From: Actinomycetota bacterium
Lineage (GTDB): Bacteria; Actinomycetota; Actinomycetes; S36-B12; UBA5976
Length of the DNA: 62,543 nucleotides
NCBI GenBank assembly: GCA_947491175.1
Contig: CANLIF010000001.1
Span: forward strand, 1 to 62,543
Direction: 5' to 3'
Shown: one piece after another, positions 44,949-47,139 of the stretch
Layout of the letters: each line of letters starts with the position of its first letter
How positions within the stretch are numbered: position 1 is the stretch's first letter
The notes under the pieces: model-generated
Told to the model about the DNA's origin: nothing
What the model saw: the letters and a program-made list of their open reading frames with translations, nothing else
Database searches by the model: none
Made by a program: the position numbers and the translations under genes

Positions 44949-45569
44949 ATGTCAATTTTGAAACAGCTGGTTTTCACACCTAGGTGTTTGATTTGCACCA
45001 GACTAGGTGTTGATTTTTGCACGTCATGTATCGAAAAGATTCGACCGTTTCGAGCTCGAGATCTAAGTGAAATTGAAGTCTGCTTTTGCGCAGGCGATTA
45101 TTCTGGCTGGCTCCGAGACTCAGTTATCTGTTACAAGAACGGAGATGCCCGATACACCAAATTGTTAGCGCAGCTTTTAAGCAGAACTTTGGACAAACTC
45201 GATGTGACTGAAAATCTGACATTGATTCCGATTCCAAGTTCGCAACAAAAAATTAGCGAACGAGGTTTCGATTCCATGGCAAATCTGTGTACAAACATGA
45301 TTCGTGAACGAGAATCGCTAAATTTGGATACTTCAAATTTGTTTCTTCGCCGGACCGTCGTAGATCAAGTTGGTTTAACTGCTCTGCAACGCCAGGAAAA
45401 TTTAGACGGCGCATTTGGAACTCGATGGATAATAAACGGAACTGTAGTGATCGTTGATGACGTTATAACAACCGGTGCAACTATGAATAGTGCAGCCCGG
45501 GCTCTTAAATATGCTGGTGCCCAACGAGTCTTTGCACTGGCTTTGTGCGGCACTCCAAAAACCAGATAG
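44949..45569 (+). CDS. comF: ComF-family phosphoribosyltransferase-domain protein
   Basis: 206 aa. N-terminal Cys-rich finger (CLIC...CTSC) and the C-terminal PRTase motif VVIVDDVITTGAT. Canonical position after lpqB. Confidence 0.88.
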   Translation: MSILKQLVFTPRCLICTRLGVDFCTSCIEKIRPFRARDLSEIEVCFCAGDYSGWLRDSVICYKNGDARYTKLLAQLLSRTLDKLDVTENLTLIPIPSSQQKISERGFDSMANLCTNMIRERESLNLDTSNLFLRRTVVDQVGLTALQRQENLDGAFGTRWIINGTVVIVDDVITTGATMNSAARALKYAGAQRVFALALCGTPKTR

Positions 45570-45579
45570 CCTTTGAGTC

Positions 45580-45840
45580 GGCACCCACCCGGGTCCGTGA
45601 TTGCGTTGCAAAGCAGTTCTTCGAAGTTGTTTTGCAACAAGCCGACGCCAGCCGCAGGCAAAGCGGTCCACGTAAGACGACTTTTGGTCGTTGAGCACGG
45701 TGCGGTTTAGAAGTAAGTCCTGCCTGTTCTTTGATCCAGATGGTCAAAATAGACAGCGAGGGTTAGTAGTTGCGATTGACGCAGCCAAAGCTCCAGCAGG
45801 CGAATGTGGGGTCGAAAATCAGGTCGGACGGGTGGGTGTC
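45580..45840 (+). ncRNA. candidate structured ncRNA, possibly a raiA-motif RNA
   Basis: 355-nt gap with no credible ORF. 45580-45597 pairs with 45825-45840 (16 bp, 2-nt bulge). The G45581-T45839 pair is a G-U only in + sense. Internal hairpins include GTTGCAAA/TTTGCAAC (45605-45638), GACGAC/GTCGTT (45676-45692) and 45724-45756. The site directly downstream of comF fits the usual comFC-RNA-raiA context. No covariance model was run. Confidence 0.5.
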
Positions 45841-45924
45841 TTCTTCACTTCCCAAAAATCTTAACTTCCCAAAAAAAAGGACACCGTTTAACCCACTAGG
45901 GTTGGGTACTTAGCGTAGGGAGTT

Positions 45925-47139
45925 TTGGTGTCAGATCCGGCCGTTAAGTCCCAGCAAAAATTTATTTTAAAAGCTATGCCCCTTTTCTTTGTTGGCATGA
46001 CTTTACGTCCGCTAACCACTTCAGTTGGTCCAGTACTTCCTGAAATTCGGGCAGAATTTGGACTCAGCGCAACGGCTGCATCGTTGTTGAGTACCTTGCC
46101 GATTCTTATGTTTGGATTCGGCGCCATGCTGGTTCCTAGATTGTTAACCAAGGTCACTCCTAACAAAGCTGTGTCGTTTGCGTTGATTGCGCTGGCAATT
46201 GGTGGGACCTTTCGCTTAGTGCCATCAATTGTTGTTCTATATTTAGGAACCATAATTATTGGCCTTGGTGTCGCAGTAGGCAACGTGGTTCCATCAATAA
46301 TCACCCGGCGAGATTTCCCAAAAAACATCGGTGGAGTCATGGGAATGATCGCGGGAGCTATCTCAATTTCCGCATCCATTGCGGCATTGATTACGTATCC
46401 GCTTACGGACGCTTTTGGATCATGGCGCGGACCTTTAGAACTATGGGCTATTTTGCCATTGATCGCTTGGGCAGTTTGGCGAACTTATCGACACCAGGAA
46501 ACTGTCGATGCAACTTTAACAACACCTCGTGACATGCGGTCATTATTTCGCAACAAGTTAGCCTGGGCACTGGTTTTCTACTTTGGTTTCCAGTCCATGA
46601 ATTACCATTCGATGAATGCCTGGCTGCCATCGATTCTGCGAGATTCAGGTATGGATCCAACTGTTGCCGGAAATCAACTCGCTCTCTTAGTACTTCTCGG
46701 ATTTCCAGCTGGTCTATTTGTTCCGCCATTGGCTGCAAGATTTAAATCTCAGGTAATGCTTTGTCTGATTTTCGTGGCAGTCTTTGCGGTCGGCCTAGTT
46801 GGGATTTATCTCTTTGCCACTACAGGATGGTGGCCAAATGGAACTTGGCTTTGGGTTTCCCTACTTGGGATCGGATTGGGCTCGTCATTTCCACTGGCGT
46901 TAACTTTGGTTTTACTTCGGTCTGATAGCCACGAAACTGCCCGAGACTTAGGGTCGTTTATGCAAGGCGGCGGCTACATCATTTCCGCACTGGGCCCATT
47001 GACATTGGGCTTACTTAAAGACTTAACTCACACTTGGGTAGCGTCATTCATTGCGTTAGCAGTAGCGCTGGTTGTTCAGCTTATTTCGGGAATGGTAATT
47101 TCCCGTCCTGGAGTTATTAGTGGTGCAACAAAACCCTAA
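45925..47139 (+). CDS. MFS transporter (CynX/NimT-like)
   Basis: 404 aa with 12 TM segments. Start is TTG 45925 or GTG 45928 (GGGAG 5 nt upstream of the latter). Confidence 0.85.
   Translation: MVSDPAVKSQQKFILKAMPLFFVGMTLRPLTTSVGPVLPEIRAEFGLSATAASLLSTLPILMFGFGAMLVPRLLTKVTPNKAVSFALIALAIGGTFRLVPSIVVLYLGTIIIGLGVAVGNVVPSIITRRDFPKNIGGVMGMIAGAISISASIAALITYPLTDAFGSWRGPLELWAILPLIAWAVWRTYRHQETVDATLTTPRDMRSLFRNKLAWALVFYFGFQSMNYHSMNAWLPSILRDSGMDPTVAGNQLALLVLLGFPAGLFVPPLAARFKSQVMLCLIFVAVFAVGLVGIYLFATTGWWPNGTWLWVSLLGIGLGSSFPLALTLVLLRSDSHETARDLGSFMQGGGYIISALGPLTLGLLKDLTHTWVASFIALAVALVVQLISGMVISRPGVISGATKP

What the first reader, a model, noticed from the sequence alone, without database searches (positions are those of the whole stretch)
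45580..45840. Orphan structured RNA downstream of comF: likely raiA-motif RNA without an adjacent raiA/hpf gene
This is the largest noncoding gap in the window (355 nt). A 16-bp GC-rich closing helix encloses about 230 nt with at least four local hairpins. A G-U pair in the closing helix and another in one inner stem indicate + strand transcription. In Actinomycetota and Bacillota the raiA-motif ncRNA class typically sits between comFC and raiA/hpf. Here the usual lpqB-comF-hpf-secA order is broken right after the RNA and an MFS transporter follows. An RNA kept without its usual downstream gene would favour an independent trans-acting function over a cis-regulatory leader. The region also holds an internal direct similarity: GATTGCGTTGCAAAGC at about 45599 and GATTGACGCAGCCAAAGC at about 45774.
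Basis: partly seen in the sequence, partly recalled or inferred. Interest (0 to 1): 0.6.

Follow-up and report, generated by a model that had tools for sequence, protein, structure and literature searches.

The report
raiA/ModT RNA kept after hpf loss
The 355-nt gap after comFC encodes a textbook raiA-motif (ModT) noncoding RNA in a small-genome freshwater actinobacterium that, like most of its genus, has deleted the ribosome-hibernation gene hpf from the whole genome yet kept the RNA, so the RNA's still-unknown job does not depend on hpf.

Summary
Observation confirmed. Window 45584-45836 (+) matches Rfam raiA (RF03072) at 149.6 bits (cut-off 101.3). With four more P1 pairs it spans exactly 45580-45840. 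It folds far better than shuffles (z = -5.1) and fits the published cryo-EM architecture (P1-P8, PK1, PK2).

Interpretation supported, but mostly already published. raiA/ModT RNA has been shown to act in trans in Clostridia, and about a third of members are not next to raiA/hpf.

What is added here:
- hpf is absent from the whole genome, not moved. Only 7 of 41 genomes in this "Ca. Nanopelagicales" genus have hpf; 33 have the RNA.
- An LpqB tree needs three independent hpf losses.
- Five different downstream neighbours follow the RNA, three of them convergent genes.
- The 25 RNAs from hpf-less genomes still covary (92.5% paired; 21 compensatory pairs).
- A TANNNT -10 box is invariant 7 nt upstream of P1.
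- Outside the genus, 78 of 80 RNA-bearing genomes have hpf.
- The clade also lacks GGDEF cyclases but encodes KhpA/KhpB-like proteins.

Verdict: a canonical member of a known RNA class in an informative minimal context.

The parts
44949..45569 (+). comFC (ComF-family phosphoribosyltransferase-like protein, 206 aa), the conserved upstream neighbour of the RNA
   Evidence: Pfam Pribosyltran. NCBIfam TIGR00201 ComF family matches over its full length, E = 4.7e-22, below the curated cut-off.
45543..45548 (+). -35-like hexamer TTGTGC, 18 nt before the -10 box. Inferred only; it lies inside the comFC coding sequence.
   Evidence: Read from the sequence. The block TT[AG]TG[CT]G is conserved in alignment A5, but that could reflect coding constraint.
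45567..45572 (+). -10 box TAGCCT (actinobacterial TANNNT type) of an RNA-specific promoter. It overlaps the comFC stop codon TAG. The predicted transcription start is about 45579-45581.
   Evidence: T, A and the final T are invariant in all 24 aligned sequences, including two outgroup families and the two mini-element genomes. The box sits at a fixed ~7 nt from GGCACCCACC. In several genomes it is not the stop codon. The generic sigma-70 scan did not call it.
45580..45840 (+). raiA-motif / ModT noncoding RNA, eight-stem subtype. The Rfam match is 45584-45836; P1 extends by 4 bp to 45580/45840.
   Evidence: Rfam 149.6 bits; fold z = -5.13; architecture and covariation.
45605..45638 (+). P2 hairpin, an optional peripheral stem present in 42% of family members per PMC12968392
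   Evidence: Appears as a 34-nt insertion relative to the Rfam model. It forms 15 pairs, 11 of them with compensatory changes across 31 sequences.
45641..45667 (+). P3a/P3b hairpin with the AC / AAAG internal loop. Its apical loop (45650-45656; PK1 pairs use 45651-45656) forms PK1.
   Evidence: Mapped from the cryo-EM description onto the sequence. P3a and P3b are 100% paired and nearly invariant.
45701..45706 (+). PK1 3' strand (UGCGGU), pairing with 45651-45656
   Evidence: Six pairs, 100% of cells paired, one compensatory A-U to G-C change. The Rfam model encodes this helix as a nested stem.
45668..45672 (+). P4 5' strand (CCACG), pairing with 45805-45809 (UGUGG)
   Evidence: five pairs, invariant, 100% paired.
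45676..45692 (+). P5 hairpin
   Evidence: six pairs, 97.8% paired, one pair with a compensatory change.
45698..45699 (+). PK2 5' strand (C115, G116 in Ns-raiA numbering), pairing with C230/G231 at 45813-45814
   Evidence: Same numbering as Ns-raiA in PMC12968392. Both pairs are invariant in 30 sequences, which is consistent with PK2 but not independently proven.
45719..45800 (+). P6-P7-P8 multi-stem domain
   Evidence: Rfam alignment. Helices 10-14 are 89.5-100% paired, with 17 pairs showing compensatory changes.
45841..45850 (+). T-rich tail (TTCTTCACTT) directly after the P1 3' strand; a possible 3'-end or termination signal
   Evidence: A T-rich run follows P1 in most of the nine aligned RNA-then-MFS relatives, less clearly in G029. 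The terminator scan found nothing canonical. Inferred.
45851..45896 (+). Variable spacer, not conserved in length or sequence. It holds most of the ACTTCCCAAAAA x2 repeat (45847-45875).
   Evidence: Alignment A6 shows indels and no conservation. The repeat is not shared by relatives.
45897..45902 (+). -10-like TAGGGT in the conserved block CCCACTAGGnTT; probably the MFS gene's own promoter
   Evidence: Recognisable in eight of the nine RNA-then-MFS genomes aligned (not in G005), about 25 nt before the Shine-Dalgarno GGGAG. Inferred.
45925..47139 (+). CynX/NimT-family MFS transporter. The true start is probably GTG at 45928, 5 nt after the Shine-Dalgarno GGGAG at 45918-45922. It is the ancestral second co-oriented neighbour (after hpf and the oppositely oriented alkZ), brought next to the RNA by deletion.
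   Evidence: Pfam MFS_1; TIGR00896; 51% identical to the MFS gene downstream of hpf and alkZ in G009; start column in A6.

Best explanation
Window 45580-45840 (+) is the single-copy gene for a raiA-motif (ModT) noncoding RNA of the full eight-stem subtype.

Proposed mechanism:
- Transcription (inferred): it is transcribed from its own sigmaA-type promoter, whose -10 box TAGCCT overlaps the comFC stop codon. Transcription starts at the first base of the P1 helix and ends at or shortly after the T-rich tract that follows P1. The product would be a discrete transcript of about 260 nt.
- Fold (shown by comparison): the RNA adopts the compact pseudoknotted core with a long P1 arm seen in cryo-EM structures.
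- Action (inferred): it acts in trans as a stable structured RNA, probably as a ribonucleoprotein with the KhpA/KhpB-type KH proteins that this genome also encodes.
- Independence from hpf (shown by comparison): its function does not depend on HPF. hpf was deleted from the genome, here together with alkZ and FMN_bind_2, at least three times in this genus and once more in another small-genome genus. Each time the RNA, its promoter element and its covarying fold were kept.
- Independence from other proposed links: most of the genus also lacks GGDEF cyclases (shown). From general knowledge these planktonic actinobacteria do not sporulate. So the conserved core function is more basic than the c-di-GMP and sporulation phenotypes described in Clostridia.

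The biochemical activity itself remains unknown, as in the literature.
For: Identity:
- Rfam raiA at 149.6 bits against a 101.3 cut-off, full length.
- One copy in the genome.
- Fold z = -5.13 on the + strand.
- All cryo-EM-defined elements can be drawn with standard pairs at Ns-raiA numbering. Across 31 sequences 95.9% of cells are paired, against 29-49% for slid controls, with 36 compensatory pairs and 0 of 500 shuffles reaching the observed value.

hpf absence:
- No PF02482 hit in the own genome.
- 7 of 41 genus genomes have hpf. 10 of the 14 genomes at least 90% complete lack it, with no pseudogene remnant. This holds for the family search on 37 of the genomes and the HPF protein search on all 41.
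- The RNA is in 33 of 41. In four of the six genomes with no element the syntenic marker LpqB was not found, and in the other two it lies within about 600 nt of a contig end.

Deletion, not relocation:
- G009 reads comFC-RNA-hpf-<alkZ-MFS-<FMN_bind_2-DUF255-<uppS.
- The window and G011 read comFC-RNA-MFS-DUF255-<uppS. About 17 further genomes have the MFS gene starting within ~70-120 nt of the RNA.

Independence of the losses:
- The LpqB maximum-likelihood tree needs three hpf losses, at least two forced by well-supported branches.
- Other hpf-less architectures are RNA-<alkZ, RNA-<FMN_bind_2 and RNA-<uppS, with convergent genes ending 4-6 nt from, or overlapping, the RNA 3' end.
- A second genus shows lpqB-comFC-RNA-secA.

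Continued selection:
- On the 25 RNAs from hpf-less genomes, 92.5% of cells are paired and 21 pairs show compensatory changes.
- RNA column identity is 90%, while LpqB falls to 38% identity.

Own promoter: an invariant TANNNT at fixed distance in 24 sequences.

Context:
- GGDEF is found in only 3 of 41 genomes.
- KhpA-like and KhpB/Jag-like ORFs are present in the own genome.

Literature: trans action and abundance in Clostridia (PMC10861870, PMC11706538); KhpA/KhpB binding (PMC12968392).
Against: - No expression data.
- The generic promoter and terminator scans found nothing. The promoter rests on conservation of a degenerate hexamer, part of which is the comFC stop codon in the window's own clade.
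- All genomes are MAGs. Absence of hpf rests on completeness estimates, although the syntenic site shows the deletion directly.
- A non-homologous hibernation factor could have replaced HPF.
- KhpA/KhpB are widespread general RNA-binding proteins, so their presence is weak support.
- The core helices (P3, P4, PK2) are invariant, so they give no covariation evidence of their own.
- The tree is from a single protein with long branches.
Confidence: 0.85

Rival explanations
1. The RNA works in cis with comFC. It is co-transcribed as the comFC 3' UTR and serves as a terminator, stabiliser or processing signal, or is cut out of the comFC mRNA rather than made from its own promoter.
For: - It begins 11-15 nt after the comFC stop codon here and directly follows comFC in every locus read in this genus and in G104 (alignment).
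- The literature finds 74% of raiA RNAs downstream of comFC (PMC10861870).
- No canonical promoter was called.
- The long GC-rich P1 followed by a T-rich tail resembles a terminator.
Against: - An invariant TANNNT lies at fixed distance from P1, including in genomes where it is not the stop codon.
- A 250-nt pseudoknotted, nearly invariant core is far more than a terminator needs.
- In C. difficile the RNA has its own mapped transcription start, and it complements in trans there and in C. acetobutylicum (PMC11706538, PMC10861870).
Confidence: 0.07
2. The RNA is a cis-regulatory leader (riboswitch-like, as Rfam's type label says) that now controls the downstream MFS transporter.
For: - Rfam classes RF03072 as 'Cis-reg; riboswitch'.
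- The MFS gene is co-oriented and starts 85-90 nt after the RNA in about 19 genomes.
Against: - The downstream neighbour varies: hpf, alkZ, MFS, FMN_bind_2, uppS or secA. In three architectures it is a convergent gene ending 4-6 nt from, or overlapping, the RNA.
- The spacer is variable, and the MFS gene has its own conserved -10-like box.
- There is no terminator or Shine-Dalgarno-sequestering platform.
- The literature rules out a cis function (PMC10861870, PMC11706538).
Confidence: 0.03
3. The RNA is a non-functional relic left behind when hpf was deleted and is decaying.
For: - hpf, its most common partner gene, is gone.
- Two congeners (G008, G035) do show a gutted element that keeps only P1.
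Against: - Bit scores in hpf-less genomes (141-157) equal those of hpf-bearing relatives.
- 92.5% of cells are paired, with 21 compensatory pairs, within hpf-less genomes alone.
- The RNA was retained through at least three independent losses in genomes of 1.0-1.8 Mb that deleted the neighbouring genes up to the RNA's edge.
- The gutted elements occur in genomes that kept hpf, which is the opposite of what this rival predicts.
Confidence: 0.02
4. The RNA and HPF overlap in function, for example both modulating ribosome activity at growth arrest, so that streamlined genomes can keep either one.
For: - The pattern in this genus looks reciprocal: RNA plus hpf in 5 genomes, RNA only in 28, and hpf with the RNA core deleted in 2. 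No genome with a demonstrably complete locus has neither; G024 (83% complete) lacks the RNA, hpf and LpqB, which could be an assembly gap.
- Adjacency is near-universal elsewhere: 78 of 80 RNA-bearing genomes have hpf.
- The Soares paper notes a possible link to translation control.
Against: - Many actinobacteria have hpf and no RNA, and one family in the same order lacks both at 98-99% completeness.
- There is no biochemical evidence that the RNA binds ribosomes.
- Only two genomes, plus four metagenome copies of their element, show the 'hpf only' state in this genus.
Confidence: 0.08

Closest known systems
raiA motif RNA / ModT (Rfam RF03072). Reference cases: Clostridium acetobutylicum raiA RNA (PMC10861870), Clostridioides difficile ModT (PMC11706538), and the Nocardioides sp. 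Ns-raiA cryo-EM structure (PMC12968392)
   Same: - Full-length Rfam match above the gathering score.
- 253 nt, the same length and eight-stem subtype as Ns-raiA, with identical numbering of the PK1 and PK2 strands.
- Single copy per genome.
- Directly downstream of comFC.
- No expression platform.
   Different: - The genome has no hpf/raiA gene at all. The clostridial model organisms merely have a different gene immediately downstream of the RNA.
- No GGDEF cyclase was found in this clade, whereas ModT phenotypes in C. difficile run through c-di-GMP.
- The host is a non-sporulating planktonic actinobacterium with a genome of about 1.7 Mb (general knowledge for the lifestyle).
- Expression and phenotype are untested here.
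Minimal raiA subtype (about 20 representatives with only P1, P3 and P4; To-raiA, 113 nt; PMC10861870, PMC12968392)
   Same: The ~100-nt elements in congeners G008 and G035 keep the same P1 arms, the same position between comFC and hpf, and the same upstream TANNNT box.
   Different: - They lack the conserved core nucleotides: no GUCCACGUAAG, UUAGAAGUAAGUCC or AUGUGGGGUCGAAAAUCAGGUC blocks.
- They give no Rfam hit even at E <= 1.
- So they are not the published minimal subtype. They are a gutted derivative or a different small element.
Other large, abundant bacterial ncRNAs with unknown or housekeeping roles (6S RNA, OLE, and similar)
   Same: Highly structured, conserved, probably abundant and trans-acting.
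   Different: No Rfam match to any of them anywhere in the window. The architecture is specific to raiA.

Membership tests
raiA motif RNA (RF03072 / ModT) | Covariance-model score at or above Rfam's gathering score, over the full model length | tested here: met
   149.6 bits against 101.3, model positions 1-209, E = 3e-37.
raiA motif RNA (RF03072 / ModT) | Long closing P1 (P1a-b-c) of conserved length, with conserved P1b/P1c sequence | tested here: met
   17 Rfam pairs plus a 4-bp extension. P1 is 95-100% paired, with 6 pairs showing compensatory changes. The P1b/P1c columns are nearly invariant.
raiA motif RNA (RF03072 / ModT) | Core of P3a-P3b bent at an A-rich asymmetric internal loop, plus P4 | tested here: met
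   P3a 45641-44/45664-67, loop AC/AAAG, P3b 45647-49/45657-59, P4 45668-72/45805-09. All are standard pairs, 100% paired and invariant in 30 sequences. There is no covariation because nothing varies.
raiA motif RNA (RF03072 / ModT) | Pseudoknot PK1: the P3b apical loop pairs with the linker between P5 and P6 (6 bp) | tested here: met
   45651-56 pairs with 45701-06. All cells are paired, with one compensatory and several one-sided changes.
raiA motif RNA (RF03072 / ModT) | Pseudoknot PK2: C115-G231 and G116-C230 in Ns-raiA numbering | tested here: met
   The same residues occur at the same numbering (45698-99 with 45813-14), invariant in 30 sequences. This is compatible with PK2 but not independently supported by covariation.
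raiA motif RNA (RF03072 / ModT) | Peripheral stems (P2, P5, P6-P8) variable in sequence but kept by covariation | tested here: met
   P2 has 11 of 15 pairs with compensatory changes. P6-P8 have 17 pairs with compensatory changes.
raiA motif RNA (RF03072 / ModT) | Single locus per genome | tested here: met
   One hit in the own genome, which is 75% complete. Every positive relative has exactly one.
raiA motif RNA (RF03072 / ModT) | Typical position downstream of comFC (74% of members) | tested here: met
   A ComF-family gene ends 10 nt before the extended P1.
raiA motif RNA (RF03072 / ModT) | Typical position upstream of raiA/hpf (66% of members; typical, not defining) | tested here: not met
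   No hpf downstream or anywhere in the genome. The same holds in 34 of 41 congeners.
raiA motif RNA (RF03072 / ModT) | Abundant, discrete, stable transcript acting in trans | not testable with these tools
Indirect support only: a conserved -10 box and convergent downstream genes.
Riboswitch / cis-regulatory leader (Rfam's type label for RF03072) | A conserved co-oriented downstream gene and an expression platform (terminator or Shine-Dalgarno-sequestering helix) | tested here: not met
   Six different downstream neighbours, three of them convergent. No terminator-like site. Variable spacer and a separate MFS -10-like box.
6S RNA and other described RNA families | Match to the family covariance model | tested here: not met
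   raiA is the only Rfam family reaching its gathering score anywhere in the 62.5-kb window.

The most novel reading that the evidence does not exclude
In genome-streamlined freshwater actinobacteria the raiA/ModT RNA and HPF are partly interchangeable. Lineages keep the RNA and discard hpf (at least four times), or keep hpf and gut the RNA to a ~100-nt stub (G008, G035). On this reading the RNA itself acts on the translation or growth-arrest machinery that HPF serves. The weaker form is much better supported: the RNA's conserved function is independent of HPF, c-di-GMP and sporulation, which makes these ~1.7-Mb genomes the minimal natural context in which to find it.
Probability: 0.1. Interest if true: 0.8.

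Novelty: new member of a known kind. Interest (0 to 1): 0.4.

Why it matters
raiA/ModT is one of the most widespread bacterial structured RNAs whose biochemical function is still unknown. The published clues point to its neighbour hpf (translation arrest), to c-di-GMP and to sporulation.

This genus is a natural deletion series. hpf was removed repeatedly, GGDEF cyclases are absent from most members, and by general knowledge there is no sporulation. Yet the RNA, its promoter element and its fold are kept intact in genomes that deleted everything up to its 3' edge.

That argues the conserved function is none of those three things. It narrows the search to partners that survive streamlining, such as KhpA/KhpB. 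It does not reveal the function, and the RNA class and its trans-acting nature are already known, so the value is a useful constraint and not a discovery.

Tried and rejected
- RNAalifold de novo on the hpf-less RNAs recovered P1, P2 and some hairpins but not the published core. I used the Rfam-derived and cryo-EM-derived structures instead.
- The Rfam consensus structure itself is outdated. It lacks P3 and P4, encodes PK1 as a nested helix, and pairs 62-64 with 222-224 in conflict with P4. Two of its pairs are never standard pairs in this genus (helix 6).
- The generic sigma-70 promoter and intrinsic-terminator scans found nothing. The promoter call rests on comparative conservation instead.
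- Loci from other genomes are mostly not placed in the Python box. I worked through alignment ids instead.
- The ACTTCCCAAAAA x2 repeat was rejected as a conserved element.
- The mini element of G008/G035 was rejected as a member of the published minimal raiA subtype.
- Five of the nine metagenome hits to the P1-arm pattern are unrelated GC-rich hairpins.
- My first crude gap map wrongly suggested two larger noncoding gaps. Both contain ORFs.
- One handle list exceeded the 80-item limit and was rerun with 80. Ten RNA-positive class-level genomes were therefore never tested for hpf.
Full report
**1. What is there**

The window has a 355-nt gap between a ComF-family gene (44949-45569) and a CynX/NimT-type MFS gene (45925-47139). 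Upstream lie mtrA, mtrB and lpqB. Downstream lie a DUF255/thioredoxin gene and a convergent uppS. On a crude ORF map the gap is the largest true noncoding stretch in the window.

A gathering-threshold Rfam scan of the whole window gives one hit. raiA (RF03072) matches 45584-45836 on the + strand at 149.6 bits, against a cut-off of 101.3, over model positions 1-209.

| Strand | MFE (kcal/mol) | z-score | Shuffles as stable |
|---|---|---|---|
| + | -108 | -5.13 | 0 of 200 |
| - | -83.6 | -2.53 | 2 of 200 |

The RNA is a GC island: 54.8% against 47.5% for the window. The only part I reject is the internal direct similarity, which consists of two shared 5-mers.

**2. Family membership**

The cryo-EM paper on raiA RNA (PMC12968392) defines the family by:
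- P1a-c;
- a core of P3a/P3b, P4, PK1 and PK2;
- optional P2 (42% of members) and P7/P8 (68%).

Its reference RNA, Ns-raiA from Nocardioides, is 253 nt with all eight stems. The window RNA is also 253 nt. The PK strands fall at identical numbering (A114-C115-G116, U118-U123, C230-G231), and the P3 internal loop AAAG is present.

I wrote this architecture, pseudoknots included, onto a 31-sequence alignment of the genus plus two outgroup families:
- 95.9% of cells form standard pairs, against 29-49% when partners are slid by 1-3 columns.
- 36 pairs show compensatory changes, against 11-15 in the slid controls.
- No shuffle out of 500 reaches the observed values.
- Core helices are invariant and 100% paired.
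- PK1 is 100% paired with one compensatory change.
- The peripheral stems carry the covariation.

The RNA is single-copy. It is a canonical eight-stem raiA/ModT RNA.

**3. The missing hpf**

The window's assembly is 1.26 Mb in 151 contigs and about 75% complete. It has no Ribosomal_S30AE (PF02482) match, which alone proves little. The genus settles it. Relatives' record titles call them 'Candidatus Nanopelagicales bacterium' MAGs from lakes.

| State in the 41 genus genomes | Count | Calls |
|---|---|---|
| raiA RNA present | 33 | 7, 44 |
| hpf present | 7 | 8 (37 genomes), 31 (all 41) |
| RNA and hpf together | 5 | 7, 8, 31, 44 |
| hpf with a gutted ~100-nt element in place of the RNA (G008, G035) | 2 | 18, 23, 24 |
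| No element found; LpqB not found (4) or within ~600 nt of a contig end (2) | 6 | 38 |
| Genomes at least 90% complete that lack hpf | 10 of 14 | 31 |

The ten high-quality hpf-less genomes include two at 98% completeness with 8-10 contigs. No pseudogene remnants were found. secA lies on another contig of the own genome.

**4. Deletion, not rearrangement**

The hpf-bearing congener G009 reads mtrA-mtrB-lpqB-comFC-RNA-hpf (212 aa, long form)-<alkZ-MFS-<FMN_bind_2-DUF255-<uppS. Its MFS protein is 51% identical to the window's. The window, and G011 whose locus was read in full, read comFC-RNA-MFS-DUF255-<uppS; about 17 further genomes have the MFS gene immediately after the RNA.

The other hpf-less architectures:

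| Order after the RNA | Genomes |
|---|---|
| <alkZ, then MFS | G003 (read directly); G031, G036 by spacing |
| <FMN_bind_2, <uppS; convergent gene ends 4-6 nt after the RNA | G002, G006, G010, G023 |
| <uppS, overlapping the RNA's 3' strand | G064 |

So the deletions stop at, or run into, the RNA's 3' edge but never remove the RNA.

**5. Independent losses and continued selection**

A maximum-likelihood LpqB tree of 24 taxa, rooted on an hpf-bearing outgroup family, needs three hpf losses. At least two are forced by well-supported branches:
- one at the base of the 16-member clade that holds the window (support 90/83);
- one in G003, inside a 100/100 clade with hpf-bearing G017 and G063;
- one in G031.

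I then restricted the analysis to the 25 RNAs from hpf-less genomes, using the Rfam-derived structure plus the two lineage-specific hairpins:
- 92.5% of cells are paired, against 30-48% in slid controls.
- 21 pairs have compensatory changes, against 5-10.
- 0 of 500 shuffles reach the observed values for four of the five measures (69 of 500 for 'further pair types').

RNA columns average 90% identity, while LpqB drops to 38% over the same span. Rfam scores in hpf-less genomes (141-157 bits) equal those of hpf-bearing relatives. The RNA is not decaying.

**6. How unusual this is**

In an even sample of 201 genomes of the class, nearly all at least 90% complete, 96 carry the RNA. Of 80 RNA-positive genomes outside the genus, 78 have hpf, nearly always directly downstream.

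The two exceptions, G070 and G104, belong to one other genus with genomes of 1.4-1.7 Mb. There the locus reads mtrB-lpqB-comFC-RNA-secA, the canonical order with only hpf excised. RNA-without-hpf is therefore rare and, in this sample, confined to two small-genome lineages.

**7. Transcription signals (inferred)**

*Upstream.* An alignment of 90 nt upstream of the RNA in 24 genomes shows an invariant T-A-N-N-N-T at a fixed ~7 nt before GGCACCCACC. The set includes both outgroups and the two mini-element genomes. In the window this is TAGCCT (45567-45572), overlapping the comFC stop codon. In G009, G008, G038 and others it is TACGGT, TACCGT or similar and is not a stop codon. This fits an actinobacterial -10 box with a transcription start at the first base of P1.

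*Downstream.* In most relatives P1 is followed by a T-rich run. Then comes a conserved CCCACTAGGnTT block (-10-like) about 25 nt before the MFS Shine-Dalgarno sequence. So the MFS gene appears to have its own promoter.

The generic scans called neither a promoter nor a terminator.

**8. Functional context**

The literature shows raiA/ModT to be abundant, stable and trans-acting in C. acetobutylicum and C. difficile. Deletion phenotypes there involve sporulation, aggregation and the transition to stationary phase, and in C. difficile they run through c-di-GMP (PMC10861870, PMC11706538). KhpA/KhpB bind the RNA, and its function is still 'unknown' (PMC12968392).

In this genus:
- GGDEF domains occur in only 3 of 41 genomes, all in the G003/G017/G063 clade. 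13 of the 14 high-quality genomes have none.
- The own genome encodes a KhpA-type protein (PF13083 at 76 bits; NF002761 at 111.6 bits against a cut-off of 106).
- It also encodes a KH+R3H Jag/KhpB-type protein of 155 aa.

So the RNA persists without hpf and without c-di-GMP synthesis, and from general knowledge of this group without sporulation, while its reported protein partners remain.

**9. Verdict**

The inference of an independent, trans-acting RNA is supported, but experimental papers already established it, and the same papers report that a third of raiA RNAs are not next to raiA.

What appears to be new is the following. Searches of the held library found no report of it.
- Repeated genome-wide loss of hpf with strict retention of the RNA, its promoter box and its covarying fold.
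- The same lineages lack GGDEF cyclases.
- Two congeners show the reciprocal case: they keep hpf but reduce the RNA to a ~100-nt stub that retains only P1.

This constrains the unknown function but does not reveal it. I rate it a new member of a known kind in an informative context, with interest 0.4.

Noticed in passing
L036:7041-7137 (+) in G008; L037:7933-8029 (-) in G035; metagenome copies L083:1520-1616 (-), L086:1664-1760 (+), L087:205-301 (+), L091:211-307 (-): Two congeners that keep hpf have a ~97-nt element between comFC and hpf in place of the raiA RNA. It keeps the same 12-bp P1 arms (one compensatory C>U/G>A change) and the same upstream TANNNT box. Its interior is two small hairpins with none of the raiA core nucleotides, and it gives no Rfam hit at E <= 1. 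Four more copies turned up in freshwater metagenomes, making five distinct sequences with too little diversity for a covariation test. It may be a gutted raiA RNA now serving as the hpf leader.
   Followed up: partly
L084:8373-8473, L088:356-451, L085:267-356, L089:1110-1198, L090:1655-1743: Other metagenome contigs carry GC-rich hairpins of 89-101 nt that share the exact raiA P1 arm sequence (CACCCACYCGGG...CCCGRGTGGGTG) but have unrelated interiors. L084 and L088 share an extended stem (GGGAGAGGGG...CCCCTCTCCC). I did not examine their context.
   Followed up: no
genus-wide; hits at G003:C35:14448-14888, G017:C145:11330-11776, G063:C6:15100-15546: GGDEF diguanylate cyclase domains are found in only 3 of 41 genomes of the genus, all in one clade. 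13 of the 14 high-quality genomes have none, so most of the genus probably makes no c-di-GMP.
   Followed up: partly
window 45847-45875: The direct repeat ACTTCCCAAAAA x2 between the RNA and the MFS gene is not conserved in relatives. G022 has a different 12-nt repeat (TTGATACCAAAT x2) at the same place, and G005, G011 and G027 lack the segment altogether.
   Followed up: partly
window 45897-45930: The MFS gene has a conserved -10-like block (CCCACTAGGnTT; TAGGGT at 45897-45902) and a Shine-Dalgarno GGGAG at 45918-45922. Its start is more likely GTG at 45928 than the TTG at 45925 listed mechanically.
   Followed up: partly
L067:1002-1958 (-) in G064: In G064 the convergent uppS ORF has a C-terminal extension of about 60 aa beyond the Prenyltransf domain. 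Its last 18 nt overlap the 3' strand of the raiA RNA's P1 on the opposite strand.
   Followed up: no
G042, G049, G053, G057 (family f7, same order): One family in the same order, at 98-99% completeness with genomes of 2.1-2.6 Mb, lacks both the raiA RNA and hpf.
   Followed up: no
G008 and G035: The two mini-element genomes (95-97% complete) give no LpqB match at E <= 1e-30, and different genes sit upstream of their comFC. They may have lost or strongly diverged the mtrAB-lpqB module.
   Followed up: no
Rfam RF03072 consensus structure as aligned to window 45584-45836: The Rfam structure line differs from the cryo-EM architecture. It encodes PK1 as a nested helix, omits P3a/P3b and P4, and pairs positions 62-64 with 222-224, which conflicts with P4. 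Two of its pairs are never standard pairs in this genus (helix 6).
   Followed up: partly
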